Assembly: GCA_945888995.1 (NCBI GenBank)
Contig: CAMDBA010000002.1
Location: forward strand, 73,690 to 137,689
DNA: 64,000 bases
Direction: 5' to 3'
Source of the DNA: a bacterium UBP8_UBA817
Lineage (GTDB): Bacteria > Margulisbacteria > Marinamargulisbacteria > CAMDBA01
Of this stretch, positions 2,744 to 50,117 are shown in pieces (the stretch's first letter is position 1; every line of letters begins with the position of its first letter). A model generated the notes under the pieces. The model had not been told where the DNA came from, made no database searches, and saw only the letters and a list, made by a program, of their open reading frames with translations. The position numbers and the translations under genes are program-made.

Positions 2744-3619
2744 ATGTATCGGGAACGGATTCAAAAAGCGAAGGTTTTGCTTGAGGCATTGCCTTATATA
2801 AAAGAATTTTTTGGCCAGACGATCGTCATTAAATACGGTGGATCGTTGATGGTGAACGAGGAAATGAAAACCCTCTTTGCCGAAGATATTGTCCTGTTGA
2901 AATACGTCGGGATGAACCCGATTATTGTCCATGGCGGTGGAAATGAGATTTCAAAATGGATGACAAAAGTCGGTAAAGAAACTGTTTTTATTGACGGCTT
3001 GCGTTTTACAGACGACGAGACCATGGAAATAACAGAAATGGTGTTGTCCGGAAAAATTAACAGTGAAGTCGTCTCTCTGATTAACCAATATGGCGGCCGT
3101 GCTGTCGGATTGTCCGGAAAAGACGCGAAATTATTTACCGCCAAGAAAATTAAATCAAAAGATGATAAGGATCTTGGATTAGTTGGTGAGATTGAAAGCA
3201 TTGATGTGGATATATTAGATACGTTATGCAGCCGCGGCTATATCCCGGTAATCTCATCTGTCGGATTGAGCAAAAAAGGCGAAAGCTTAAATTTAAATGC
3301 CGATCATGTGGCCTCTGGTGTCGCGCAGGCCATGAAAGCCTTAAAACTTATTTTCCTGACGGATGTCCAGGGCATCATGAAAAAAGGTAAATTGATTAAC
3401 CACCTTGATTTGAAAGAGGCAAAAAAGCTTTTGGAACACCCAGATATCAAAGGCGGCATGTTACCAAAGCTGGAATGCTCGATCGAGGCTATCAAAGGAA
3501 ATGTTGGCAATGTTCATATCATCAACGGCAATATTGAGCATGCGGTTCTTCTGGAAGTTTTTACCGATGTGGGCATCGGAACCATGCTGTCAAAAAAACC
3601 ATTGGATGAGGACATTTAA
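2744..3619 (+). CDS. argB: acetylglutamate kinase
   Basis: ORF track starts at 2717, but GGAAGGAGAA RBS precedes the internal ATG at 2744 (MYRERIQKAKVLLEALPYIKEF, typical ArgB N-terminus); VIKYGG and IVHGGG motifs. Confidence 0.85.
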   Translation: MYRERIQKAKVLLEALPYIKEFFGQTIVIKYGGSLMVNEEMKTLFAEDIVLLKYVGMNPIIVHGGGNEISKWMTKVGKETVFIDGLRFTDDETMEITEMVLSGKINSEVVSLINQYGGRAVGLSGKDAKLFTAKKIKSKDDKDLGLVGEIESIDVDILDTLCSRGYIPVISSVGLSKKGESLNLNADHVASGVAQAMKALKLIFLTDVQGIMKKGKLINHLDLKEAKKLLEHPDIKGGMLPKLECSIEAIKGNVGNVHIINGNIEHAVLLEVFTDVGIGTMLSKKPLDEDI

Positions 3620-6349: not shown

Positions 6350-7855
6350 ATGATCTTTTCAATTAAAAAAGTGGATGTATTTAGTCAACAAACCGATGTT
6401 TTGGTAGCACCTGTATTTAAAAACGAAAGCCTTTTATCTTCCGATTTAAGAGTGCTGGATCGATTATTGGAAGGGAAGCTGTCGGAGCTTTTTGACGAAA
6501 AAACATTGACCGGAAAAGATAATGAAGTCGTGGTTATCCATGGATTTGGTGAATTAAAAGCCAAACGTCTTCTATTAGTCGGACTGGGCGAACGATCTGC
6601 TTTGACCTGTGAGAAATTACGTAAAGCAGCAGGTGAAATCGTGAGAAGAGCTAAAGGAGCAAAGGCAAAAAAAGTGGTCTGGTTATGGGATATCGGAACT
6701 CTTGATGCTGCAGATACTACGCAGGCCGTGGCCGAAGGCGCAGTCATGGGCGGATATACTTTTGACTGCTATAAAACCAAACCTGAAAAAAATGAAAAAC
6801 CCACCAAGATTAAAGAAATAGTATTAGCGGTACCTGATTCAGAACATATTTCTGCCATGGAATCGGCAGTTATAACCGGCCTGGTCATTGGGGAATCGGT
6901 TAACATCGCACGTGATTTAGCCAATATGCCGCCGAACGACTTAACCCCATCAGCGTTTGTAGATCTGGCCAAAAAATATCTGGATGGACAAAAATCGATT
7001 ATGATTGACGTTATTGATAAAAAGAAAGCAAAAGCTTTAGGAATGCACGCATTTTTAGGCGTAGGTCAGGGCACTGTCGAACCTTGTTATATGCTGGCGG
7101 TTTCCTATCATCCTATGAAAAATAAAAAGCCCATCGGGCTTGTGGGGAAAGGCGTCACATTTGATACCGGAGGTATTTCCATAAAGCCGTCAAAAGGAAT
7201 GGAAGAAATGAAAGGCGATATGAGTGGAGCAGCAGCAGTTCTGGGTACGGTGATCGCCTTGTCAAAGCTTAAAGTTCAGACCAATGTCTTAGCTGTAATG
7301 CCTTTGAGTGAGAATATGCCCTCCGGTTCTGCACAGCGTCCCGGTGATATCGTCGCTGCAATGAATGGGAAAACGATTGAGATTACCAACACCGATGCGG
7401 AAGGTAGACTGATTTTGGCCGATGCGCTATGTTATGCCGTTACTAAGGGGTGCTCTCAGTTAGTCGATATTGCGACTCTGACAGGTGCATGTCTGGTTGC
7501 CTTAGGAGATCAGGCAGCGGCAATACTCGGGTCTGATCAGGGCATGATTGATACCTTTCTAAAGGTTGGGGAGCGGACCGGCGAGCGTTTATGGCAATTG
7601 CCACTTTATGAAGAATATTTTGACTATATTAAATCGGATTCTGCGGATATGGTGAATTCATCCGAAAACCGGCTGGCAGGCACCGCCGTAGGTGCAATAT
7701 TCCTGAAGCAATTTGTCGGGGATACGCCGTGGGTGCACCTTGATATTGCCAGTATGATGCACTATTCCAAAGTATCCGGTTATACGGTCAAAGGGATGTC
7801 GGGTGTGGGGGTTCGGACCCTCGTTGGATATTGTCGCCAACAGTCTGGGCTTTAA
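6350..7855 (+). CDS. pepA: leucyl aminopeptidase (M17)
   Basis: 501 aa; NTDAEGRL signature and M17 catalytic core. Confidence 0.88.
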   Translation: MIFSIKKVDVFSQQTDVLVAPVFKNESLLSSDLRVLDRLLEGKLSELFDEKTLTGKDNEVVVIHGFGELKAKRLLLVGLGERSALTCEKLRKAAGEIVRRAKGAKAKKVVWLWDIGTLDAADTTQAVAEGAVMGGYTFDCYKTKPEKNEKPTKIKEIVLAVPDSEHISAMESAVITGLVIGESVNIARDLANMPPNDLTPSAFVDLAKKYLDGQKSIMIDVIDKKKAKALGMHAFLGVGQGTVEPCYMLAVSYHPMKNKKPIGLVGKGVTFDTGGISIKPSKGMEEMKGDMSGAAAVLGTVIALSKLKVQTNVLAVMPLSENMPSGSAQRPGDIVAAMNGKTIEITNTDAEGRLILADALCYAVTKGCSQLVDIATLTGACLVALGDQAAAILGSDQGMIDTFLKVGERTGERLWQLPLYEEYFDYIKSDSADMVNSSENRLAGTAVGAIFLKQFVGDTPWVHLDIASMMHYSKVSGYTVKGMSGVGVRTLVGYCRQQSGL

Positions 7856-9563
7856 ACCGGGTTTTACCCTTATGCTCGAATTTGAGCATCGGAACACCGG
7901 GCAGATATTCTTCCTGAGAAACAGCCGTGATACGCCGTAACGCATACAAAATGACGCCAATTTTTTTTGCTTGCTCGGCAATAATCCGGCTTACCCAAAC
8001 AAGTTTCGGGTCCAGATTGGCTTCCTGAGTGAGCTGTTGGGCGCCGAGAAGGATCGACGTGAGAGGTGAGTTAATCTCGTGATTGAGGGTAATGACGGTT
8101 TTAGTGACGGCGGCGAGTTTAAGCGTTTCTTCGATTTCTTTTACTTGTTGGGCAACCCGTTTTTCAAGAGTTTGGAGTAATTCTTTATTTTCCTGGTTGA
8201 GTTGTTGAAGGTGTTCAAACACCCGTACCCGTTCATACACGACCGTAATATGAGAGGCCAGTGTTTCGAGCAGCGTAATATCCTGTAGTGAATAGGCGTC
8301 CCCCGAATATTTTTTTTCTAGCGCCAGGAAGCAGAGTAGCTGGTTTTCCAAAATACCTGGAACAGCCAGTGAAATACGATTTTCTTTCAAATATTCTCTC
8401 AATGTACAATCGAATTCGGAGGATAGAATCACTTTCTTTTCGGAGAGTAAACGCGAAACCAATGGATCAGACTCATCCAACGTATCAGGCAGAGCGATAG
8501 ACGAACCGACATTTTTGCCCGCAAGATAGAAATTCTGAGATACAAAATGAGATCTCCGGTCTTCGACATAAAGGACAAGCGGCATCTCTAGCTCTTTTCT
8601 AAACAAGTCTAATAGGACATCGAGAAGATCCGCCAGGCTGACGCAGCCCGTTAAGCGGTGAGAGACTTTTTTTAAGACTTCCTGATAGTTATACCGGCCT
8701 TTCAAAAAGAGACTATCTGAGCTGGTTTGAATAACATATCGCACTTTTTGAAACGTTAAGATGATAACTGACGTATATAAAATCTGGAATAATAAAAATA
8801 GTGCGTCTGATCTGCGGCTCGAAAATTGATGGAAAATATATACCGACGAAAAGCTGATAAAGATATAAAAAGCGGCTGTTGTGGCCAATGCGACACTTCG
8901 GCTGATCATGATGGGGATTTCTACAAGCCGGTGCCGTGTAATAGCGATAAATGTGGTAATGACTAAAAACGATGTGAATAGCGGACTGAATTGATCAAAT
9001 TCCGTATATCCCACCATCGGCAAAATGATGCTTGCCGCAGCACATGAAAATCCTGACAAAATCGTGCCGGCTATAAAGTATTGAAGACGCATCGCATAAA
9101 TTCCCCGGTGCAATCTAATCTGTGCCATGGCTACTCCAACGATACCGGCAACGTAAGAAAGGAAATAAACCGCAAATATAGGACACCCGATCCCATAAGC
9201 TGTAGTAGAAAATGTCGGCGCGCTTTGAACAATGGCAGGTGTAACCGAAAGCCCGATCATCCAGATAGGGGGAATCCAAATGAGTCCTAATATCCACCCA
9301 TTGAGCCCGCTAAATTTTCTAGGATAAAAAAGTGCGAACATCAGAATGAATGGCGGAATAATACTTGCGATTACAAATGAAACTCTCGTCCAAAACAGGA
9401 TATTGGTAGAATTGTGGACCAGATAGACGGACGCAATCCACGCGGCAATTCCAAGCGCACCCAGAAAAAAAGAAATGTTGGCGGGATTGGTTCTGTGTTT
9501 ATAAAAAATAAGCCAACCAAGTAGACAATTGGCCGCGATTAAAAATAAATAGATATAGATCAT
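7788..9563 (-). CDS. multi-pass membrane sensor protein with GAF domain and histidine-kinase DHp/H-box but no HATPase_c domain
   Basis: 591 aa; ~8 predicted TM helices in first ~300 aa; central GAF-like region; C-terminal H-box LNHEINSPLTSI followed by only ~95 aa (two-helix DHp), no N/G1/F/G2 boxes; C-terminal 68 nt overlap the 3' end of pepA on the opposite strand. Confidence 0.6.
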   Translation of the reverse strand: MIYIYLFLIAANCLLGWLIFYKHRTNPANISFFLGALGIAAWIASVYLVHNSTNILFWTRVSFVIASIIPPFILMFALFYPRKFSGLNGWILGLIWIPPIWMIGLSVTPAIVQSAPTFSTTAYGIGCPIFAVYFLSYVAGIVGVAMAQIRLHRGIYAMRLQYFIAGTILSGFSCAAASIILPMVGYTEFDQFSPLFTSFLVITTFIAITRHRLVEIPIMISRSVALATTAAFYIFISFSSVYIFHQFSSRRSDALFLLFQILYTSVIILTFQKVRYVIQTSSDSLFLKGRYNYQEVLKKVSHRLTGCVSLADLLDVLLDLFRKELEMPLVLYVEDRRSHFVSQNFYLAGKNVGSSIALPDTLDESDPLVSRLLSEKKVILSSEFDCTLREYLKENRISLAVPGILENQLLCFLALEKKYSGDAYSLQDITLLETLASHITVVYERVRVFEHLQQLNQENKELLQTLEKRVAQQVKEIEETLKLAAVTKTVITLNHEINSPLTSILLGAQQLTQEANLDPKLVWVSRIIAEQAKKIGVILYALRRITAVSQEEYLPGVPMLKFEHKGKTRFKAQTVGDNIQRGSEPPHPTSL

Positions 9564-9754
9564 AAGTTATATTAAAGGGCCATAGTGAAAAATGAATATA
9601 TTGATACTATTATATCCTTTTTTTTCACAATTCGGATGGGTCATTTCATCGGTATAAAAAGGCCCGGTTTGCATCAAGAATGATCGATGTTTAAGGCGGA
9701 CTTATAAAGGGTAATTAGTTAAGAGCGATATCTTGTATAAAAGGTGGGGTGGGA

Positions 9755-10675
9755 ATGAATGTAATTAACTCAAGACAAGATTCTTCTCCGGATTTCTCAG
9801 ATTTTTTAAGCAGGCGGTTTCTATCTCAAGGGAATGGTGCCCAACCGACAACACCTTTAGTGGCGATGGCGGAAAAAATCGCAGCCCTGGAATCAGAATT
9901 GGCGGGCTATAAAAAAATGAAAGACGATGTCGTGAAGCAGTTAATCGAAATCCGTGAGAATAACCATGACATGAAAAATTATATGACACCTTTAAAGATT
10001 TTCCTGCAAATGGTATCAAAGGAAATTACAGACACTAAACTTCTTAAATTTATTGAGTCTCTTCGCTACGATACGCTGCCCAAAATAGAAGAAGTATATT
10101 TGAGTGTAGATAACAATGCGGCTGAGTTGGGCCAGACATCTAAAGTTTATACGAGGGTTTTAAATTTATCGGAAGAGTTAACACGGTTTTTAGAACATAT
10201 CGCCATTCAAAATCCAGGGATCACGATTGCCTCAGATATTCATTATACCGGGTTTATTCGAACCAGCACCCGGATTTTTTTTGATAAAGTATTGAAAAAT
10301 TGCATCATTAATTCCGTTCAGGCAATCCGTGAAAAACATATTGCGAACGGCAATGTCATAGTGGAATTACATGATGTGACGAGCTATCGGAATCGCTATA
10401 ACGATAAAGTTTGTTTCGATCAATTCGAAGAGTCCGATATTATGATCGTTTGCAGGGATAACGCTGGAGGTCTTCCTCAGCAACTGGAGCACCGATTTTT
10501 TGATATGGGATTTACGTATAATAAGCCGAGTGGGACAGGTGTGGGCACCGCTTCGGTCCGAACCTCGGTAGAGGAAAAGCTATTTGGCAAAATCGCACTT
10601 GAAAATAAAGAAGGTGCGGGCTTAGCCATTCATATGAAATTTTCAGGATCATTAGAAGATAAGAGCGCGTCATAA
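9755..10675 (+). CDS. soluble sensor histidine kinase (HisKA + HATPase_c)
   Basis: ORF begins with GTG at 9749; ATG at 9755 preceded by AAGGTGGGGTGGG RBS; coiled-coil N-terminus; H-box HDMKNYMTPL, N-box NCIINSVQAI, G1 DNAGGLP, F-box FFDMGFT, G2 GTGVGT. Confidence 0.75.
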   Translation: MNVINSRQDSSPDFSDFLSRRFLSQGNGAQPTTPLVAMAEKIAALESELAGYKKMKDDVVKQLIEIRENNHDMKNYMTPLKIFLQMVSKEITDTKLLKFIESLRYDTLPKIEEVYLSVDNNAAELGQTSKVYTRVLNLSEELTRFLEHIAIQNPGITIASDIHYTGFIRTSTRIFFDKVLKNCIINSVQAIREKHIANGNVIVELHDVTSYRNRYNDKVCFDQFEESDIMIVCRDNAGGLPQQLEHRFFDMGFTYNKPSGTGVGTASVRTSVEEKLFGKIALENKEGAGLAIHMKFSGSLEDKSAS

Positions 10676-10687
10676 AGGAGAATCGGT

Positions 10688-11923
10688 ATGTCTGTTGAAA
10701 CGATTGTGGTCATTGAAGAGGGCACGGCTATTGCGGATATGTTAGAAAAGGAACTGATGAAACCGCATCAGATTTTAACTTTTTTGGAAGCGAATGAGGC
10801 AACTTACCAAGCCATACAGGCCCGATATGATGATTTAAAAGAGTATGTGGCGCTTATCATAGTCCAGGAGACGGAATTGTTGGACGGAATCGCGGTTTTT
10901 CGTCAACTCTCTCAGAGATTGTATTTCCCGAATGTACTGATTGTGACTAATGACCGGGATCTGGAACGCAGTATCGTTGCTATGAAGGAAGGCTGTGTTG
11001 ATTACCTTATTGCACCTGGCATGGAGACACTCAAGGCTCATGTTGAAGATATCTGTAAAAAATCGATTCATAAGATATCGGATCACTATGACAAATTCGA
11101 AGTCCAAAACGAACTCGTATACAAACGAACTCTAACGCGTGAAGTAGAGCTTAAAACCTATATCGATGAAAACCGTGTGTTGACCCAGGAAGAACGCAGC
11201 GCTATTCGGTATGCCAGTGGTCCGGAAGTCGGCAAGACCTGGGAATCCGTTATTGATGACATCGAATTATCTTCAACCCGAAAACCGCATGTCCTAATTG
11301 TTGACGACGAAGAAATGCAGAGGGAAAGTCTGGCAGAATATTTATGCGATGACTATGAAACGGTAATGGTGGGCAGCTCAGAAGCCGCACTGGCCTATAT
11401 GGCGGAGCATCCGATTGATGTGGCGCTATTGGATATTCGGATGGAAGGAATGCCCGGAGACGAATTGCTTAGGCAGATCCGGCAGATTTCACCGTTGATA
11501 TCGGTTATTATGGTGACGGCTTATCCTGATACCGCTACGGCCGTTCAAACATTGGGAGATGGCGCGGTTGAATTTCTCAATAAGCAATCCTACACGGAAG
11601 AGGCTTTATTGGCGGCGGTGAAACGTGCTGCTGAAATGAAATATTATCGGGATCATTATATTTGTCAGGATTTGCTGTTCGAACGCCGGCTGAAATTGTG
11701 GAAAAAATATTACATGGGAGGGTGTCATAAAGCGCAGATCCTACTCAGGGATTTTTATGTGTTTTTTCCTGAATTTTGGGTTGAATCTGTTGATGAGCAA
11801 CTTCCGATAAAGCCGGATTATGTTTTAGGTGACTTGGATGAATTCGTTGAAAAGATGAGAACGGTTTATGAAAAAGAAGAAGCCAGAGTAGAAGAAAAAG
11901 TGATGCAGGAGAATGCCCTTTAA
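10688..11923 (+). CDS. response regulator with degenerate N-terminal receiver, canonical receiver and uncharacterised C-terminal domain
   Basis: 411 aa; starts 13 nt after the kinase stop; second domain has DD (LIVDDEE), phospho-Asp (ALLDIRM), Thr (MVTAY), Lys (FLNKQ); first REC-like domain lacks the phospho-acceptor Asp and the conserved Lys; last ~95 aa have no recognisable HTH. Confidence 0.7.
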   Translation: MSVETIVVIEEGTAIADMLEKELMKPHQILTFLEANEATYQAIQARYDDLKEYVALIIVQETELLDGIAVFRQLSQRLYFPNVLIVTNDRDLERSIVAMKEGCVDYLIAPGMETLKAHVEDICKKSIHKISDHYDKFEVQNELVYKRTLTREVELKTYIDENRVLTQEERSAIRYASGPEVGKTWESVIDDIELSSTRKPHVLIVDDEEMQRESLAEYLCDDYETVMVGSSEAALAYMAEHPIDVALLDIRMEGMPGDELLRQIRQISPLISVIMVTAYPDTATAVQTLGDGAVEFLNKQSYTEEALLAAVKRAAEMKYYRDHYICQDLLFERRLKLWKKYYMGGCHKAQILLRDFYVFFPEFWVESVDEQLPIKPDYVLGDLDEFVEKMRTVYEKEEARVEEKVMQENAL

Positions 11924-12063: not shown

Positions 12064-15000
12064 ATGGATGCGCAATACCATATTACTGAAATATTATTTG
12101 AAAATAATCAGGTCAGCCTATGTAGAGGGATAATGTCGGGTGCTCCTTGCTTAATTAAGCGGCTTAAACCGCTGGAAGATTCCCGCAGAGAAGTGTCTCA
12201 GCTTGCGTACGAATACCGAATTTCTAAGTCGTTTGAATCGGACTACTGCTTGGATCCTGTTACAGTAGAGATGTTCGATCACACACCGGCCATTGTTTAT
12301 TCCTATCATGAAGCGGATTTATTAAGTTGTTTAATGGATAAGCGGATATTTTCCGTGTCTGAAGTGCTGAGCCTCGGAATAGAAATCCTGAAAGCACTCA
12401 CGGAAATTCACGGAAATTTTGTAACGCACCGTCTGCTCAGCCCTCATTCGATCTTTTGGAATGGGAATACCAAAAAAGTAAAGATAATTAATTTCGGATC
12501 TGCGGTTTCGTTTTTACAGGATTCGATTTCGTATAAAGCTGCATTATTGGCCGATGATCGGGATCGAGCTTATATCGCGCCTGAATGTTTAAAAGAAGGG
12601 TCGTCCTATGACTTTCGTGCTGACTTTTTTTCGCTGGGAATTCTTTTGTATGAATTATTTTTAGGGCATCCGCCGGATTATCATAGCGCTATGTCGTCTT
12701 TATATGACAGCAAGCCCACCATCCCCCGTGCCATATCGGACATCGTTCAAAAGTTATGCTCATTTAATATCCAGGATCGGTATAAAAGTGCGCAAGGCGC
12801 TTTATATGATTTGGAAAAATGTGCGGAATTGCTTCAACCGACCGGTTCTATTGCCTATTTTTACCCGGGGCAGGAAGATGTGCCGACGTTTCTAATGTTT
12901 CCGGAAAATGTATACGGACGCGAAGCGGAAGATAAATTCTTAAGTTTGATCATTAAATCTATTTGTTATGGGCAGCCGAAATGTTGTCTGGTATCAGGGT
13001 ATTCGGGGATCGGAAAAACGACGCTGATTATGCAGGCTTTGCAATCGGAAACCCTCCAATATTGCCATGCCTTGAAAGGAAAGGGCGAACAAACTGGAGA
13101 GCGTCGGCCATATGGGTTATTCAGACGTGCGTTTACTGAATTTGTATTTAAAATTTTACAAGCGGGTCAAACCTCCGTGTCCTATTGGCGAGATCATATC
13201 CTAAAAGCAGTCGGGGAACTTAATGGCCAGGTAATTGTGAATGTCATACCCGAGTTTGAATTTATTCTCGGATCACAGCCTGCTTTATATACCATCACCT
13301 CTCAAGAGGCTCAAAACCGTCTGGAGGAAACCTTTTGCTGTTTATTTCATGCGCTTTCAAATGTAGAGCATCCATGTCTTTTTTTTGCGGATGATTTGCA
13401 TTGGGCGGATGAAGAGTCGTTACGCCTGTTAAGCGTGATCGTTAATCAAAGAATGCCCTATTTTGGCCTGATCGGCACCTATCGAAGTAATGAAATTTCG
13501 ATGGATAACCCTCTTAATACTTGGCAAGATAACAGTCTGATTCCGATTGAGACGATCGTCCTGCTACCTCTGCATTTACATGATGTTAAATGCTATATGG
13601 AAGAATTATTAAATTGCACTTCCGATCAGATCGATGTCTTTTCATTTATGGTGTACGAAAAGACAAAAGGAAATCCGTTTTTTATGAAGCAGTTTTTGCG
13701 ATCGCTATATGATCAGAAGCTGCTTTATTTTGATATCAAAACCCAGAGCTGGTTATGGGACCAATCCGCGATCAGTAAAATTACCGTATCGGAAAATGTG
13801 GCCGATATGCTAGAAGAACAGCTCAATTATCTTTCTGAACCAACCAAGTCGCTGCTTATGATGGCCGCTTGCTTAGGTACAATGTTTGATATCAAAACTT
13901 TAAGTAATATTTGCTACCGTCCTTTTATTCAATTATCGTCTGAAATATGGGAAGCCTGTCAGAAAGGCCTTCTTATTCCGCTCAACGACATTGATATTTT
14001 AGATATCGATATTCACCATGTCGATACGACAAAGTGGTATCGCTTTGCCCACGATAAGATACAAGGAGTGGCCTACTCGCTTATTCCAGCGGATGAAAAG
14101 CCGGAACTTCACCTTAAAATTGGCCGGAATTTGAAAAAATTCTATGTTGAAAATCAATCGGACGAATGCCTGTTTGCAGCCGTTTATAACCTAAATTTAG
14201 CGACCCATCTTATACCGGATGATCGGGAGAAATATGAGCTGGCCCGTCTTAATTTCATGGCCGGCGAAAAATCAAAAGAAGAGTTAGGATTTAAATCAGC
14301 CAAAGATTATTTTTTGACTGCCACGGGTCTTTTAAGGGCAACATATTGGAATACGGAGTTTGAATTCTTAATGTCGGTATGGCTTAATTATGCGGAGACA
14401 TTAGCAGTGTGTAATGATTTTAAAGGGGCCGAGCGCACTTACCGAAAACTACTCGACTATGCCAAAGAGCCTCTCGATAAAGTGCGAATATATATCAAAA
14501 TGGTAGTGCTCTATACGGCGTCTATCCAATATCCTCTGGCCATTGAAAGCGGATTAGACGGCTTGGCGTTACTGGGTTTGACGGTTCCCAAATATTGCAG
14601 GAAATGGCTTTTAATTGTCGAAGTATTAAAGTTTCAGATTTATCATAGGCGAACCGATGTTCATGAATTGATTCACCGGCCGATTTTTAAAGATAAGTCT
14701 TCGATCTTATTAATCGATATGATGAATGCGCTAGCGGTTCCGATATATTTTAGCAATCAAATCCTGGGCCAAATATTATTGTTACGGGTATTGAATTATT
14801 CATTGCGCCGGAATTGCGTCACAACGGCGTCATTTTTGTATCTTGCGGTAGGTATCGTGATCAATCATATTTTGCAGAAACCTTGGTGGGGCTATCAATT
14901 TGCAAATTTAGCGATTGATCTTAACGAAAAATATCATTTGGTCCAACAAAAATGCAAAACTCTTGAATTATTAGGCACGTTTTTTATGCATTGGGTAAAG

Positions 15001-15864
15001 CCTGCGTACGAAGCCTTGGAGGTTTTGGAACGTGCTTATTCAGCAGGTCTTGAAACGGGCGACTATTATTTTGCAGGTCTTGCTGCGTCTAATTTAATGG
15101 GAATCTCAATGATTTGCGGGATTCATCTGGAAACCATTTTAAAGATGGGCCACCGCGCGGATGAGGTGTTTGTGAAACAATCCTTGTCGGATGTGACTCG
15201 CAAGGTAGATTTACAAAAAGATCTGATTGAAGCCTTGATGACGAGTCAGGAAAAAACACTCGCGATTTTTTGTAATGGATATATTTTAAACGTAATAAAC
15301 CGCACAGGGAATCAAACCGCGATGGCGTATTATTATTCACTTAAACAAATGATCTTTTATCTTTTTGATCATCCCGATGCTCTCGAAGCGGTGGATCATT
15401 CCCAGGAATATCATATTTATTCCGCAGGCTTATACTATTACCCTGAGCATCGTTTCTTTCAAACACTTATTTTAATTCGGCATTACCGAAAGGCCACATG
15501 GTTTAAGAAAGTCCAGTTTCTTAAAATTATTCGGCGTAATATCGCTCAGCTTCAACGGTGGGCAAAGCATTCACCTATTAATTTTCGGCATAAAGGGCTA
15601 ATTTTGCAGGCTGAATTAATGAGGCTCCAAGACAAAAAAACAGAAGCTGAAGGATTTTATAAGCAAGCATTATCCGACTTTACTGGGGATTACTTTGCGC
15701 ATAATAAAGCCATTGCCTCAGAATGCTATGGCCAGTTTTGTCTGGAAAATGGAAAGCTAGAGCAAGCTTCCCTATATATTAAGCAATCCAGATGTCTCTA
15801 TTATCTCTGGGGTGCCACTGCCAAAGTCGAAGAAATGGACAAACGGTACCCCGGTTTTTTATAA
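12064..15864 (+). CDS. STAND-type NTPase with N-terminal Ser/Thr pseudokinase domain, AAA_16 ATPase and C-terminal TPR-like repeats (PknK/MalT-like architecture)
   Basis: 1266 aa; kinase fold present (VAIK-like CLIKRL, APE, DFFSLG subdomain IX) but HRD->HRL and DFG->NFG, Gly-loop degenerate; Walker A GYSGIGKTT, Walker B LFFADDLHWADEES; long helical/TPR-like C-terminal half. Confidence 0.7.
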   Translation: MDAQYHITEILFENNQVSLCRGIMSGAPCLIKRLKPLEDSRREVSQLAYEYRISKSFESDYCLDPVTVEMFDHTPAIVYSYHEADLLSCLMDKRIFSVSEVLSLGIEILKALTEIHGNFVTHRLLSPHSIFWNGNTKKVKIINFGSAVSFLQDSISYKAALLADDRDRAYIAPECLKEGSSYDFRADFFSLGILLYELFLGHPPDYHSAMSSLYDSKPTIPRAISDIVQKLCSFNIQDRYKSAQGALYDLEKCAELLQPTGSIAYFYPGQEDVPTFLMFPENVYGREAEDKFLSLIIKSICYGQPKCCLVSGYSGIGKTTLIMQALQSETLQYCHALKGKGEQTGERRPYGLFRRAFTEFVFKILQAGQTSVSYWRDHILKAVGELNGQVIVNVIPEFEFILGSQPALYTITSQEAQNRLEETFCCLFHALSNVEHPCLFFADDLHWADEESLRLLSVIVNQRMPYFGLIGTYRSNEISMDNPLNTWQDNSLIPIETIVLLPLHLHDVKCYMEELLNCTSDQIDVFSFMVYEKTKGNPFFMKQFLRSLYDQKLLYFDIKTQSWLWDQSAISKITVSENVADMLEEQLNYLSEPTKSLLMMAACLGTMFDIKTLSNICYRPFIQLSSEIWEACQKGLLIPLNDIDILDIDIHHVDTTKWYRFAHDKIQGVAYSLIPADEKPELHLKIGRNLKKFYVENQSDECLFAAVYNLNLATHLIPDDREKYELARLNFMAGEKSKEELGFKSAKDYFLTATGLLRATYWNTEFEFLMSVWLNYAETLAVCNDFKGAERTYRKLLDYAKEPLDKVRIYIKMVVLYTASIQYPLAIESGLDGLALLGLTVPKYCRKWLLIVEVLKFQIYHRRTDVHELIHRPIFKDKSSILLIDMMNALAVPIYFSNQILGQILLLRVLNYSLRRNCVTTASFLYLAVGIVINHILQKPWWGYQFANLAIDLNEKYHLVQQKCKTLELLGTFFMHWVKPAYEALEVLERAYSAGLETGDYYFAGLAASNLMGISMICGIHLETILKMGHRADEVFVKQSLSDVTRKVDLQKDLIEALMTSQEKTLAIFCNGYILNVINRTGNQTAMAYYYSLKQMIFYLFDHPDALEAVDHSQEYHIYSAGLYYYPEHRFFQTLILIRHYRKATWFKKVQFLKIIRRNIAQLQRWAKHSPINFRHKGLILQAELMRLQDKKTEAEGFYKQALSDFTGDYFAHNKAIASECYGQFCLENGKLEQASLYIKQSRCLYYLWGATAKVEEMDKRYPGFL

Positions 15865-15872
15865 GAATTAGT

Positions 15873-16589
15873 CTAGGAATGTTCGCCGGTTAAGACGAGT
15901 TCCGAAACGTGTGTTGAAACTTCTTTATTAGAATCCAATGTTAAAACCGTGTAGCGGTTAGACCAGACCGACCCTGTGATTTGAGCTGAAATATTAGGGA
16001 ATTGGTTTCTCAGGAAGCTGGATGAAAGCGATTTTAAACCCTTTGTAAATTCATGGACACTTGATTTAGGATCGATGTCCAGAACCATTGTAATTTCAGT
16101 ACCACTGACTTGCAGGTGATAAAGGGCATAAGTTAATTCTGAAATCGTTTCTTCAATTAATTTTTGAAGCGCATCTCTGACCGGCTCATCTGCCAAGATC
16201 GATTTTTCTGATTTTGTTTTCCAAGAGATTAAGTAGGTGCATTTATAAACGACTTCGTCTTTTTCATAAACGCCTGCAGGAACTGCGAATGAACTTGCCT
16301 GGAAGGTAGGTGTTCCGTTTTCCTGATGCAGCGCGTCATAGAAAATAAGATCCGGTTTGATACGCCCGAAAAACGCGGCTGCAATAAATTGCTTTTTTTC
16401 ATCTTCGGTCAGGCTGAGCGTTTCAGCGAGTTTTTGACAAATTGGAAAAGTAGGCGGGGTATAGCCTAATTCGAGTTTTCGGATATAACCGTCAGATTTT
16501 TGTATAGCTTCGGCTAAGTCAACTTTATACAAATCTCTATCTAATCTAAATTTTCTTAGCAAATCGGCAAATGGAGGTGGCTTTATCAT
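15873..16589 (-). CDS. XRE-family helix-turn-helix protein fused to uncharacterised C-terminal domain
   Basis: ORF extends to 16670, but AAAGGAAA RBS precedes the ATG at 16589 (MIKPPPFADLLRKFRLDRDLYKVDLAEAIQKSDGYIRKLELG = HTH_3/Cro-C1 type); ~170-aa C-terminal region with no recognisable motifs. Confidence 0.6.
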   Translation of the reverse strand: MIKPPPFADLLRKFRLDRDLYKVDLAEAIQKSDGYIRKLELGYTPPTFPICQKLAETLSLTEDEKKQFIAAAFFGRIKPDLIFYDALHQENGTPTFQASSFAVPAGVYEKDEVVYKCTYLISWKTKSEKSILADEPVRDALQKLIEETISELTYALYHLQVSGTEITMVLDIDPKSSVHEFTKGLKSLSSSFLRNQFPNISAQITGSVWSNRYTVLTLDSNKEVSTHVSELVLTGEHS

Positions 16590-16706
16590 AATAATTTCCT
16601 TTTCATTAACGGGGTCTTTGATATTACTACTTCGACTCATGCCAGCACGACAGTAAATATTTACTACCATTTTTGGTATGGTTTTTCAACTAGGAAAAAT
16701 AAACGC

Positions 16707-49197: not shown

Positions 49198-49662
49198 TTA
49201 AGCAAATGGTTTGGAAAGCGCTTCGGAGAAGGCGGCGTAGTCTTCTCCCACTGAATGAATGGTTAAAAGCCGCTTATGCGCAGATTTATGCGAAAATGTC
49301 AGCTCGCAAAATGTGTCAGGGTACAAATAGTCTAATTTTTCAGCCCATTCGATAATAACAATGGCGTCGGCGCTAAACAGATAATAATCGATATCCATAT
49401 CTAGCAGTGAACTTGGGTGGTGAAGGCGGTAGAGGTCCAGATGATAAATCGGAATTGCGCCTTCGTATCGATTCACCAATGTAAACGTCGGGGACGAGAT
49501 AGCCTCAGTTACCCCTAACTGCCGACATAATGACGTTGTGAATGTTGTTTTTCCTGCACCCATTTCACCATTGAGAAGCAGTCGGTGACCTGGCTTTAGT
49601 AAGGGCGCTAAGTTTGCGGTCAGGTGATTAAGATGTCGGAGGTTTTGAATAATGAGGCTCAT
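49198..49662 (-). CDS. tsaE: tRNA threonylcarbamoyladenosine biosynthesis ATPase TsaE
   Basis: 154 aa; Walker A GEMGAGKTTF and SPTFTLVNRY motif. Confidence 0.82.
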   Translation of the reverse strand: MSLIIQNLRHLNHLTANLAPLLKPGHRLLLNGEMGAGKTTFTTSLCRQLGVTEAISSPTFTLVNRYEGAIPIYHLDLYRLHHPSSLLDMDIDYYLFSADAIVIIEWAEKLDYLYPDTFCELTFSHKSAHKRLLTIHSVGEDYAAFSEALSKPFA

Positions 49663-50117
49663 TTGAGGTCCTTATATAAGATCTGAATAGATTGATGTAA
49701 GACCGGATGCACCCAATCCGGCACAATTGCGGCCGACGGCCCAAGTGCAAACACACGTTCGGCAAATCGAGGGTGGGGAATGGTCAGAGTCGGTGTATCG
49801 AGAATAACTTGGTCATAGAGCAAAATATCGATATCAATCGGTCTTGGCGCATAATCCCCTTTTAAAACTCTTCCCAGATCGGCTTCAATGCCTTGAGCAT
49901 GCAGGAGCAATGCTTCGGGAGATAAGTCGGTTGTAATCAACACGGCTGTATTGAGAAATAGCGGTTGATCCAAAACGCCGACAGGCTCGGTTTCGATAAT
50001 AGGTCCCATTGCGATGAGATTAGCCCGGGATTGAGCGCAAATGAACTCAATTGCGTGTTTGATATGGGTTTCCCGATCTCCGAGGTTAGATCCTAACCCT
50101 AATAAAACCGTTGCCAT
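49659..50117 (-). CDS. folK: 6-hydroxymethyl-7,8-dihydropterin pyrophosphokinase
   Basis: 152 aa; HPPK N-terminus LLGLGSNLGDRE; 4-nt overlap with tsaE. Confidence 0.85.
   Translation of the reverse strand: MATVLLGLGSNLGDRETHIKHAIEFICAQSRANLIAMGPIIETEPVGVLDQPLFLNTAVLITTDLSPEALLLHAQGIEADLGRVLKGDYAPRPIDIDILLYDQVILDTPTLTIPHPRFAERVFALGPSAAIVPDWVHPVLHQSIQILYKDLK

What the first reader, a model, noticed from the sequence alone, without database searches (positions are those of the whole stretch)
9749..11923. Soluble histidine kinase translationally coupled to a pseudo-receiver + receiver regulator with an unassigned output domain
The kinase (H, N, G1, F and G2 boxes all present) lacks any TM or sensor domain apart from a coiled coil, so its input probably comes from a protein partner. 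The 411-aa regulator has a first REC-like domain that lacks the phospho-Asp and Lys, followed by a canonical REC. Its ~95-aa C-terminal region (YRDHYICQDLLFERRLKLWKKYYMGGCHKAQ...) has no HTH or known output motif that I recognise. Combined with the DHp-only membrane protein, this looks like a multi-component phosphorelay rather than a simple two-component pair.
Basis: partly seen in the sequence, partly recalled or inferred. Interest (0 to 1): 0.55.

Follow-up and report, generated by a model that had tools for sequence, protein, structure and literature searches.

The report
Three-part kinase switch, unnamed regulator family
An uncultured bacterium carries a bacterial signalling unit split into a membrane sensor that has lost its ATP-using part, a small sensor-less kinase, and a regulator built from two copies of a 'receiver + unknown small helical domain' module; the anatomy is real and the regulator belongs to a rare, unnamed family, but what it controls is still unknown.

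Summary
Window 9755-10675 encodes a 306-aa cytoplasmic HisKA-type kinase with an intact H-box and a full catalytic domain, and no TM or sensor domain. It is followed 12 nt later by a 411-aa regulator. In an 18-sequence family alignment the regulator's first receiver lacks the acceptor Asp (V59) and the Lys (A109). The second receiver is canonical (D249/T277/K299).

New findings:
- The "unassigned" C-terminus is a ~65-aa helical domain (X) with no Pfam, NCBIfam, PDB-sequence or Foldseek match.
- A diverged copy of X also sits between the receivers, so the protein is [REC-X]x2.
- It belongs to a small unnamed family (~20 proteins, mostly Margulisbacteria/Saganbacteria/WOR-1). Most members have two canonical receivers.
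- The divergent 7TM-GAF-DHp protein is a catalytic-domain-less member of a 7TM-GAF kinase family. Complete members neighbour other regulators of this family in three further contigs.

Best model: a catalytic-domain-less sensor, a sensor-less kinase and a tandem-module regulator. X is acidic, so output is probably through protein contacts. A His-Asp-His-Asp phosphorelay is not shown, because no second acceptor or HPt protein is present. The downstream "Ser/Thr kinase" is a pseudokinase. Verdict: a new variant of a known kind, of moderate interest.

The parts
7788..9563 (-). 591-aa membrane sensor. About 8 hydrophobic segments (aa 1-271), a GAF domain (aa ~309-441), and a HisKA-type DHp (aa ~470-550) with H-box LNHEINSPL (H495, codon 8079-8081). 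There is no catalytic ATP-binding domain. The last 68 bp overlap the convergent pepA gene.
   Evidence: Pfam: HisKA_7TM 2e-11, GAF_3/GAF_2 1e-4, HisKA 5e-3, no HATPase_c. Hydropathy. H-box alignment to HisKA kinases. 24% identity, E=2e-43 over aa 12-550 to the complete 718-aa kinase of L017, with the alignment stopping at the end of the DHp. 591 aa in 7 strain variants. Strain dN/dS 0.21-0.32 with no stops.
9564..9754 (.). 191-bp AT-rich divergent intergenic region between the sensor gene and the kinase gene. It presumably holds both promoters.
   Evidence: Sequence. One promoter-like site on + at 9585-9613, no better than the shuffle expectation. Only weak AT-rich inverted repeats.
9755..10675 (+). 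306-aa cytoplasmic histidine kinase. It has a conserved 22-aa N-terminal peptide, a variable linker, a helical region running into the DHp (H71, codon 9965-9967; H-box HDMKNYM), and a catalytic domain (aa ~177-298) with N, G1, F and G2 boxes.
10700..11041 (+). REC1 of the regulator (aa ~5-118), a pseudo-receiver. V59 sits at the phospho-acceptor position and A109 at the conserved Lys position. T87 is retained, and the acidic pocket reads E10-E11-G12.
   Evidence: Weak full-length REC match E=6e-4. Family alignment and per-position table.
11105..11281 (+). X1 (aa ~140-198), a diverged copy of the X domain lying between the two receivers.
   Evidence: Profile-profile X1 vs X2: 97% with helix alpha5 included. 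With alpha5 trimmed: 88%, E=3e-6, 38 columns. An independent rerun gave 73%.
11285..11635 (+). REC2 (aa ~200-316), a canonical receiver: D206-D207, D249 (codon 11432-11434), T277, K299.
   Evidence: Pfam Response_reg 5e-28. PDB receivers such as FleR, HupR and FixJ. D249 is invariant in the family.
11666..11920 (+). X2 (aa ~327-392) plus a lineage-specific C-terminal helix (aa 393-411). X2 is a small helical domain with an invariant Arg (ERRL) and Pro, and a near-invariant D..FFPE motif.
   Evidence: Alignments A6 and A10. AF2 model with pLDDT 74, pTM 0.60. No Pfam, NCBIfam, PDB-sequence or Foldseek-PDB match. Only 2 hits among 1.84 billion representatives.
12064..15864 (+). 1266-aa pseudokinase + STAND (AAA_16) ATPase + TPR-like protein, 140 nt downstream of the regulator. 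It is a possible partner, but membership of the system is unproven.
   Evidence: Pfam. Catalytic loop HRLLSPHS vs YRDLKPAN, and NFG for DFG/DLG, in the alignment to GRK2. Syntenic in all strain variants but not in the 59% relative L001.

Best explanation
This is a three-protein His-Asp signalling unit.

(1) The divergently transcribed 7TM-GAF-DHp protein is the signal-sensing part. It descends from a complete 7TM-GAF histidine kinase, the usual genomic partner of this regulator family, and has lost its ATP-binding domain while keeping the phosphorylatable His495.

(2) The 306-aa sensor-less kinase supplies the ATP-dependent chemistry.

(3) The 411-aa regulator receives the phosphoryl group on D249 of REC2.

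The catalytic-domain-less sensor is inferred to set the phosphorylation level of REC2 in one of two ways. It could pair through its DHp with the soluble kinase, either regulating it allosterically or being trans-phosphorylated on H495. Alternatively it could act as a signal-controlled phosphatase opposing a constitutive kinase.

The regulator is two tandem [receiver + X] modules. REC1 is a non-phosphorylatable adaptor. Phosphorylation of REC2 is inferred to rearrange the two modules and expose or re-pair the X domains. These are acidic small helical domains with a conserved R...D..FFPE surface, and they probably act by binding another protein rather than DNA.

Shown: the domain anatomy, the catalytic-residue states, the X1/X2 homology, the existence of the family, and the synteny of this regulator family with the 7TM-GAF kinase family.

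Inferred: who phosphorylates whom, the role of the sensor, and the output.
For: - Kinase motifs are complete and no sensor or TM segment is present.
- The kinase-regulator pair is conserved and tightly spaced or abutting in the only distant relative.
- REC1 is degenerate and REC2 canonical in the family alignment.
- X1 is homologous to X2.
- A single-module REC-X protein exists (P0052).
- The window sensor is a full-length homologue of the complete 7TM-GAF-HisKA-HATPase kinase adjacent to family member P0033. The same kinase family is convergent to P0026 and P0027. GAF-HisKA or HisKA kinases sit next to P0029 and P0045.
- The catalytic-domain-less state is stable at 591 aa in 7 strain variants, with dN/dS 0.2-0.3 and no stops.
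- X is acidic (window X2 pI 5.3, X1 pI 4.9, whole protein pI 4.7).
- X has no conserved His, Cys or Ser, and its invariant residues are only Arg and Pro.
- X has no HTH or other known-domain signal.
Against: - No experiment or structural prediction links the two DHp domains, and they show no special mutual similarity.
- The soluble kinase is not the missing half of the sensor. It could therefore work entirely alone.
- The upstream region of the only distant kinase-regulator relative is missing because the contig ends. The three-gene set is thus seen in one species only.
- The sensor's H-box has Ser rather than Asn or Thr at H+4. This weakens the phosphatase sub-model, which rests on my own knowledge of the E/DxxN/T motif.
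- About 4 of 10 family contexts have no adjacent kinase.
- Several family X2 domains are basic (pI 8-9.4).
Confidence: 0.45

Rival explanations
1. Plain two-component pair. The soluble kinase senses a cytoplasmic cue or partner through its N-terminal ~70 residues and phosphorylates REC2. The 7TM-GAF-DHp protein is an evolutionary leftover of the former cognate kinase and plays no part, or only an independent one.
For: - The kinase-regulator pair alone is conserved in L001, where it is followed by nuoA.
- The kinase's first 22 residues are conserved at 59% overall identity while the next ~25 are not, which suggests a docking or sensing peptide.
- The soluble kinase is unrelated to the sensor-family DHp-CA.
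- The sensor evolves faster than housekeeping genes (dN/dS 0.2-0.3 vs 0.02 for pepA).
Against: - The sensor ORF is intact in 7 strain variants with dN/dS well below 1.
- Its H-box His and both DHp helices are retained.
- It sits head-to-head with the kinase-regulator operon, and its family is the recurrent neighbour of this regulator family.
Confidence: 0.25
2. True multi-step phosphorelay. The route would be soluble kinase His71 -> REC2 Asp249 -> His495 of the DHp-only membrane protein acting as a Spo0B/ChpT-like phosphotransferase -> an unlinked terminal regulator.
For: - The DHp-only protein has an intact His and no ATP-binding domain, which is formally what a phosphotransferase looks like.
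- The regulator has no recognisable effector domain, as expected of an intermediate.
Against: - No second acceptor receiver or HPt gene was found among the window ORFs scanned (short ORFs and the region beyond 54 kb were not scanned), and REC1 cannot accept phosphate.
- A phosphotransferase carrying 7TM and GAF sensor modules has no precedent that I know of.
- In related loci the same sensor family is a complete kinase sitting next to the regulator, which points to an ordinary kinase-to-regulator direction.
- The X domains are conserved, which argues for an output role rather than a pure shuttle.
Confidence: 0.1
3. The regulator is a transcription factor and X is a novel or very divergent nucleic-acid-binding helical domain. 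Phosphorylation would control binding, for example at the divergent promoter region.
For: - The first helix of X carries an invariant Arg and a K/R-rich stretch (KRK in most members).
- Some family X2 domains are basic (pI up to 9.4).
- The receiver - long helix - small helical bundle layout resembles ANTAR or LuxR-type regulators (my own knowledge).
- JGI labels some members 'DNA-binding NtrC family'.
Against: - The window's X1, X2 and whole protein are acidic.
- No HTH or ANTAR family is hit in any of 18 members at E<=1.
- Profile comparison with the NtrC Fis-type HTH gives <=1% probability.
- Foldseek finds no PDB hit.
- The JGI label is an automatic name explained by receiver similarity, and no sigma-54 or HTH_8 domain is present.
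- There is no convincing operator-like repeat in the intergenic region.
Confidence: 0.15

Closest known systems
PleD-type tandem-receiver response regulators (Caulobacter PleD: REC - degenerate REC adaptor - GGDEF)
   Same: Two receivers sit in tandem, and one has lost phosphorylation residues and presumably serves as an adaptor or dimerisation surface. PDB PleD receivers match REC2.
   Different: Here the degenerate receiver comes first, not second. There is no GGDEF or any known enzymatic output. Each receiver is followed by its own copy of an unknown helical domain.
FrzZ-like dual-CheY proteins (Myxococcus), from my own knowledge
   Same: Two receiver domains sit in one polypeptide with no DNA-binding domain, and output is by protein-protein contact. 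Most family members here have two canonical receivers.
   Different: FrzZ has a simple linker and no conserved post-receiver domain. It is fed by a CheA-type kinase, not a HisKA kinase. No sequence relationship was tested or shown.
Kinase-kinase regulation through DHp contacts or split kinases (RetS-GacS, DivL-CckA, CheA3-CheA4), from my own knowledge
   Same: A kinase-like protein that cannot itself complete the ATP-dependent step is proposed to control, or be served by, a second kinase. This matches the pairing of a catalytic-domain-less sensor with a sensor-less kinase.
   Different: RetS and DivL retain catalytic-like domains, whereas here the domain is entirely absent. No interaction has been demonstrated. 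The arrangement of a membrane DHp-only sensor with a minimal DHp-CA kinase in a divergent gene pair is not one I know to be described.
HisKA_7TM (PF16927) 7TM-GAF sensor histidine kinases
   Same: The window sensor matches HisKA_7TM, GAF and HisKA. It aligns end-to-end through the DHp with a complete member.
   Different: It lacks HATPase_c, the domain that makes the family kinases.
NtrC-family response regulators (the label JGI gave to some family members)
   Same: The receiver domains are most similar to NtrC/AtoC/FixJ-type receivers.
   Different: There is no sigma-54 AAA+ domain and no Fis-type HTH. X is unrelated to HTH_8 by profile comparison.

Membership tests
HisKA-type histidine kinase (soluble 306-aa protein) | DHp domain with a phospho-acceptor His in an H-box (H-E/D-h-K/R-N/T-P-h) | tested here: met
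   HDMKNYM at H71 is in register with HELRNPL, HEIRTPM and HEMNQPL of Pfam-HisKA proteins. The NCBIfam AtoS alignment starts at the H-box. Pfam HisKA itself did not report a hit.
HisKA-type histidine kinase (soluble 306-aa protein) | HATPase_c catalytic domain with N, G1, F and G2 boxes | tested here: met
   PF02518 scores 33.5 bits, above the gathering score of 26.4. Alignments to PDB kinases and to session kinases cover NCIINS, DNAGG, FFDMGF and GTGVG.
HisKA-type histidine kinase (soluble 306-aa protein) | Autophosphorylation and phosphotransfer activity | not testable with these tools
   This needs biochemistry.
Response regulator receiver (REC2, aa 200-316) | Acidic pair, phospho-acceptor Asp, Thr/Ser and Lys | tested here: met
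   D206, D207, D249, T277 and K299. D249 is invariant in 18 sequences. PF00072 scores 97.8 bits.
Response regulator receiver (REC1, aa 5-118) | Phospho-acceptor Asp and conserved Lys | tested here: not met
   V59 and A109 in the window, and I/S in P0002. 14 of 18 family members have D and K at the same columns. The fold-level REC match is only sub-threshold at 20.4 bits. REC1 is therefore a pseudo-receiver.
His-Asp-His-Asp phosphorelay | An HPt or Spo0B-like phosphotransferase plus a second, terminal acceptor receiver | tested here: not met
   No further receiver or HPt gene was found among the 40 window ORFs scanned with Pfam between 7.8 and 54 kb; the arg genes upstream are annotated in L002; ORFs under 150 aa, two ORFs at 49198-50117 and those beyond 54 kb were not scanned. 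REC1 lacks the Asp. An unlinked terminal regulator cannot be excluded.
HisKA_7TM sensor kinases (membrane protein 7788-9563) | N-terminal 7TM module | tested here: met
   PF16927 scores 44.6 bits, above the gathering score of 28.6. About 8 hydrophobic segments.
HisKA_7TM sensor kinases (membrane protein 7788-9563) | DHp with His plus an HATPase_c catalytic domain | tested here: not met
   The DHp and H495 are present, but there is no HATPase_c. The alignment to the complete L017 kinase ends at aa 550, and only ~40 unrelated residues follow.
[REC-X]x2 family (unnamed; P0026-P0040, P0045, P0061) | Two receivers, each followed by a long helix and the R..L..EL..KR..G...(D)..FFP(E) domain; total length 404-432 aa | tested here: met
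   Full-length alignment at 19-28% identity to the Margulisbacteria-type members (19-59% including P0002). The X2 profile hits P0026 in 1.84 billion representatives. X1 is homologous to X2. The window member is divergent: REC1 is degenerate, there is a 7-aa deletion before X2, and X1 lacks FFP.
NtrC-family / DNA-binding response regulators | Sigma-54 AAA+ domain and a C-terminal Fis-type HTH, or any other known HTH | tested here: not met
   No PF00158 or PF02954 hit. X vs HTH_8 profile gives <=1%. No HTH family is hit in the 18 X2 sequences.
ANTAR-type anti-terminator regulators | C-terminal ANTAR three-helix RNA-binding domain (PF03861) | tested here: not met
   No ANTAR hit at E<=1 in any of 18 members or in the window protein. 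A fold-level comparison was not possible.
Active Hanks-type Ser/Thr kinase (downstream 1266-aa protein) | HRD catalytic Asp, catalytic-loop Asn and DFG Asp | tested here: not met
   HRLLSPHS and NFG in the alignment to GRK2. The protein is therefore a pseudokinase.

The most novel reading that the evidence does not exclude
A functionally split sensor kinase. A membrane 7TM-GAF sensor that keeps only its DHp works with a minimal sensor-less DHp-CA kinase. This could be by heterodimerisation with trans-phosphorylation of H495. It could also be a division of labour, with a constitutive kinase opposed by a signal-gated phosphatase. Together they control a regulator whose output is a previously undescribed, duplicated helical domain (X). 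X would act by protein-protein contact, possibly with the adjacent pseudokinase-STAND-TPR protein.
Probability: 0.3. Interest if true: 0.65.

Novelty: new variant of a known kind. Interest (0 to 1): 0.48.

Why it matters
Two-component systems are usually read as one sensor kinase plus one regulator with a known output. This locus matters for three reasons.

1. It defines a compact, unnamed output or adaptor domain (X). X is repeated after each receiver and confined to a few candidate phyla near the Cyanobacteria, where signalling has barely been studied.

2. It offers a natural experiment. The ancestral sensor kinase lost its ATP-binding domain, and a minimal kinase gene sits between the sensor and the regulator. 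That makes questions about trans-phosphorylation, DHp heterodimer control and kinase/phosphatase partitioning directly testable with three small soluble constructs.

3. Across the family, the two receivers have decayed in complementary ways: REC1 here, REC2 in another subgroup. This shows how tandem receivers subfunctionalise.

It is not a new kind of system, and its physiological role remains unknown.

Tried and rejected
- **Full-length AF2 with a 3-sequence alignment:** unusable (pLDDT 46).
- **GTDB representative genomes:** scanned twice, with C-terminal and N-terminal patterns. No relatives.
- **JGI metagenomes:** scanned twice, with the regulator N-terminus and the kinase. No relatives. 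The kinase-regulator subfamily is known only from the window's species and one Logan contig.
- **Word-indexed search with the X2-only profile:** nothing.
- **Hypothesis 'X is a remnant Fis-type HTH of NtrC regulators':** rejected.
- **Hypothesis 'the soluble kinase is the split-off DHp-CA of the 7TM kinase' (gene fission):** rejected, because there is no similarity to the L017 DHp-CA or between the two window DHps.
- **Hypothesis 'unannotated genes upstream of the regulator in L004/L006 are divergent kinases':** rejected.
- **Hypothesis 'the Ser/Thr kinase neighbour is a conserved third partner':** not supported. The L017 kinase is an active-looking, differently built protein with only generic similarity, and L001 has nuoA downstream.
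- **Organism identity:** exact-cluster look-up gave strain variants from NCBI, ENA and Logan but no names, so the organism remains unassigned.
- **RNA elements:** no Rfam family in 5-18 kb.
- **Literature:** searches found nothing on this family.
Full report
**Observation**

The kinase ORF can start at GTG 9749 or ATG 9755. Public gene calls for the same sequence use the 306-aa ATG form.
- It carries HATPase_c above Pfam's threshold.
- Its N, G1, F and G2 boxes align with solved and session kinases.
- Its H-box (NNHDMKNYM, H71) is in register with HisKA H-boxes. This agrees with an NCBIfam AtoS alignment that begins at the H-box.
- It has no hydrophobic segment and no recognisable sensor domain.

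The kinase stop and the regulator start are 12 nt apart, with an AGGAG between them. In the only distant relative the TGA directly abuts the ATG. The genes are therefore tightly linked, although 'translationally coupled' in the strict sense applies only to the relative.

**The regulator**

REC2 (aa ~200-316) is a strong, canonical receiver. The N-terminal domain matches the REC profile only weakly, but over its whole length (E=6e-4).

Whether it truly lacks the acceptor Asp needed a proper alignment. A first search of 5.8 billion proteins found only two full-length relatives, one 99% and one 59% identical. A full HMMER scan of 1.84 billion representatives with the C-terminal profile added one borderline hit, P0026. 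P0026 has the same length and layout.

Searching with P0026 uncovered about 20 proteins of 404-432 aa. They come mostly from Candidatus Margulisbacteria, Saganbacteria and WOR-1, and all are named only 'response regulator'. In the 18-sequence alignment:
- 14 members have D/T/K in REC1.
- The window protein has V59/T87/A109, and its 59% relative has I/T/S.

The pseudo-receiver claim is therefore confirmed in a correct alignment.

A different subgroup (P0036, P0037, P0039, P0040) keeps REC1 intact but has lost the acidic pocket of REC2; P0036, P0037 and P0039 have also lost the REC2 Lys. The two receivers have thus decayed in complementary ways in different lineages.

**The 'unassigned output domain'**

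The C-terminal ~95 aa has no hit in any of the following:
- Pfam or NCBIfam
- Pfam for any of 18 family members scanned individually
- PDB sequences, searched with a family profile

The family consensus is R..L..(E)L..KRK...K.I.M.D.Y.FFPE........P.......L..FI..L. Arg and Pro are invariant, and D, F, F and E are nearly so. No conserved His, Cys or Ser suggests catalysis.

The segment between the two receivers is a diverged copy of the same domain:
- Profile-profile probability is 97% with helix alpha5 included.
- With alpha5 trimmed it is 88%, E=3e-6 over 38 columns.
- An independent rerun gave 73%.

The protein is therefore [REC-X]x2. A single-module REC-X protein also exists (P0052). Shorter relatives keep an X1-like segment but end in a short coil.

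X shows no profile similarity to the Fis-type HTH of NtrC regulators (<=1%). This disposes of the automatic 'NtrC family' label.

The window's X1 and X2, and the protein as a whole, are acidic (pI 4.9, 5.3 and 4.7). That favours a protein-protein role over DNA binding, although some family X2 domains are basic.

**The membrane protein and the question of a third component**

The divergent gene (7788-9563, minus strand) encodes HisKA_7TM + GAF + a DHp with an intact H-box (H495). It has no catalytic domain. This is not an assembly artefact:
- Seven strain variants are all 591 aa.
- Comparison with strain contigs gives dN/dS of 0.21-0.32 with no stops, against 0.02 for pepA.

The gene-neighbourhood survey supplied the key evidence:
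- In L017, a regulator of the same family (P0033, ~27% identical to the window's) lies next to a complete 718-aa HisKA_7TM-GAF-HisKA-HATPase_c kinase.
- The window protein aligns with that kinase over aa 12-550 (E=2e-43). The alignment ends exactly after the DHp, where L017 continues into its catalytic domain.
- Truncated convergent genes next to P0026 and P0027 are the DHp-CA ends of the same kinase family (40% and 39% identity).
- P0029 has a divergent GAF-HisKA-HATPase neighbour, and P0045 has a downstream HisKA-HATPase kinase.
- Four other contexts have no adjacent kinase.

So the 7TM-GAF kinase family is a recurrent genomic partner of this regulator family. The window's copy is a catalytic-domain-less member of it.

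The soluble kinase is not the missing half. It shows no similarity to the L017 DHp-CA or to the window sensor's DHp. Among the contigs examined here, only the window's subfamily has this extra minimal kinase immediately upstream of the regulator.

**Mechanism**

The anatomy above, the residue states, the X duplication, the family and the synteny are shown. The mechanism that follows is inferred.

The minimal kinase would provide ATP-dependent phosphorylation, and D249 of REC2 would be the acceptor. The catalytic-domain-less sensor would control the phosphorylation level in one of two ways:
- by DHp-level interaction with the kinase, through allosteric control or trans-phosphorylation of H495, or
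- as a signal-gated phosphatase.

The phosphatase option rests on my recollection that an isolated EnvZ DHp retains phosphatase activity. The sensor's H+4 residue is Ser rather than the usual Asn or Thr, which weakens this option.

Phospho-REC2 would then re-arrange the two REC-X modules, with REC1 acting as an adaptor as in PleD. The X domains would then contact a partner.

I give this composite model a confidence of 0.45. The rivals are:
- a plain kinase-regulator pair with an irrelevant leftover sensor (0.25)
- X as a novel nucleic-acid-binding domain (0.15; this concerns the output only, so it is not exclusive of the other models)
- a genuine His-Asp-His-Asp relay (0.10)

The relay lacks its defining parts. 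REC1 has no acceptor Asp, and no other receiver or HPt gene was found among the 40 window ORFs scanned with Pfam between 7.8 and 54 kb; the arginine-biosynthesis genes upstream are annotated in the strain variant L002. ORFs shorter than 150 aa, two ORFs at 49198-50117 and the ORFs beyond 54 kb were not scanned.

**Context**

The window is an ordinary chromosomal region. It carries arginine and heme biosynthesis genes, ndk, pepA, def, leuA, rho, lexA, uvrC and tkt, plus two tRNAs. No Rfam element lies near the locus.

The subfamily is absent from GTDB species representatives and from JGI metagenomes at the sensitivity of the pattern scans.

The gene downstream of the regulator encodes a 1266-aa Pkinase-AAA_16-TPR protein. 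Its catalytic Asp, Lys and Asn, and its DFG Asp, are all replaced, so it is a pseudokinase-STAND-TPR scaffold. It is syntenic in all strain variants but not in L001. The Ser/Thr kinase near the L017 regulator is a different, active-looking protein. A link to the system is only a possibility.

**Verdict**

It is a new variant of a known kind: a two-component system with a catalytic-domain-less sensor, a minimal kinase, and a tandem pseudo-receiver/receiver regulator carrying an undescribed duplicated domain. It is not a new kind of system, and its physiological output remains unknown. Interest is moderate (0.48).

Noticed in passing
window 12064-15864 (+): The 1266-aa 'Ser/Thr kinase'-AAA_16-TPR protein is a predicted pseudokinase. 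Its catalytic loop reads HRLLSPHS instead of HRDLKPxN, and it has NFG instead of DFG. It is conserved at 1266 aa in 7 strain variants (dN/dS ~0.26). From my own knowledge, it resembles the N-terminal two-thirds of cyanobacterial HstK-type STK-AAA-GAF-HK proteins.
   Followed up: partly
window 15873-16670 (-): A single ORF fuses an XRE-type HTH (HTH_3, aa 38-91) to an IS200-type Y1 transposase domain (aa 141-249). This may be a domesticated or regulator-fused transposase. It is also present in the strain variant L002.
   Followed up: no
window 7788-7855: The 3' ends of pepA (+) and the 7TM-GAF-DHp gene (-) overlap convergently by 68 bp. This leaves no room for a catalytic domain downstream of the DHp.
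   Followed up: partly
window 9755-9820 (kinase aa 1-22) and L001 25-100: The first ~22 residues of the soluble kinase (MNVIxSxxDxxxDxSDFLxRRF) are conserved between the 59%-identical orthologues, while the next ~25 residues are not. This could be a docking peptide for a partner.
   Followed up: no
family proteins P0036, P0037, P0039, P0040 (alignment A3): In this subgroup REC1 is canonical, but REC2 has lost the acidic pocket in all four and the Lys in three (I, E and Y in P0036, P0037 and P0039; P0040 keeps it) while keeping the Asp. This is the mirror image of the window protein, so the two tandem receivers have decayed in complementary ways.
   Followed up: partly
P0052 (233 aa) and P0042-P0049 (326-348 aa): A single-module REC-X protein exists. 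A shorter subfamily has REC - X1-like - REC - short coil, without the FFPE domain. X therefore behaves as a mobile module attached to receivers.
   Followed up: partly
L004 1-6950 and L006 3385-6961: In WOR-1/Saganbacteria-type contigs the family regulator sits between large proteins with no Pfam match at all (1101, 848, 712, 352 and 330 aa) and a metG-like tRNA synthetase - tatD - T2SS-F - pseudopilin cluster.
   Followed up: partly
contig of P0029 (ENA ERZ1426847, genes at 3158-3511): A 117-aa protein with a weak Sigma70_r4 match lies directly downstream of a family regulator. This single instance hints that the output could involve a sigma-like partner.
   Followed up: no
window 9582-9631: There is an AT-rich imperfect inverted repeat (20-nt arms, 75% complementary, 10-nt spacer) in the divergent promoter region. 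It overlaps the only promoter-like site on the + strand and is not distinguishable from chance.
   Followed up: no
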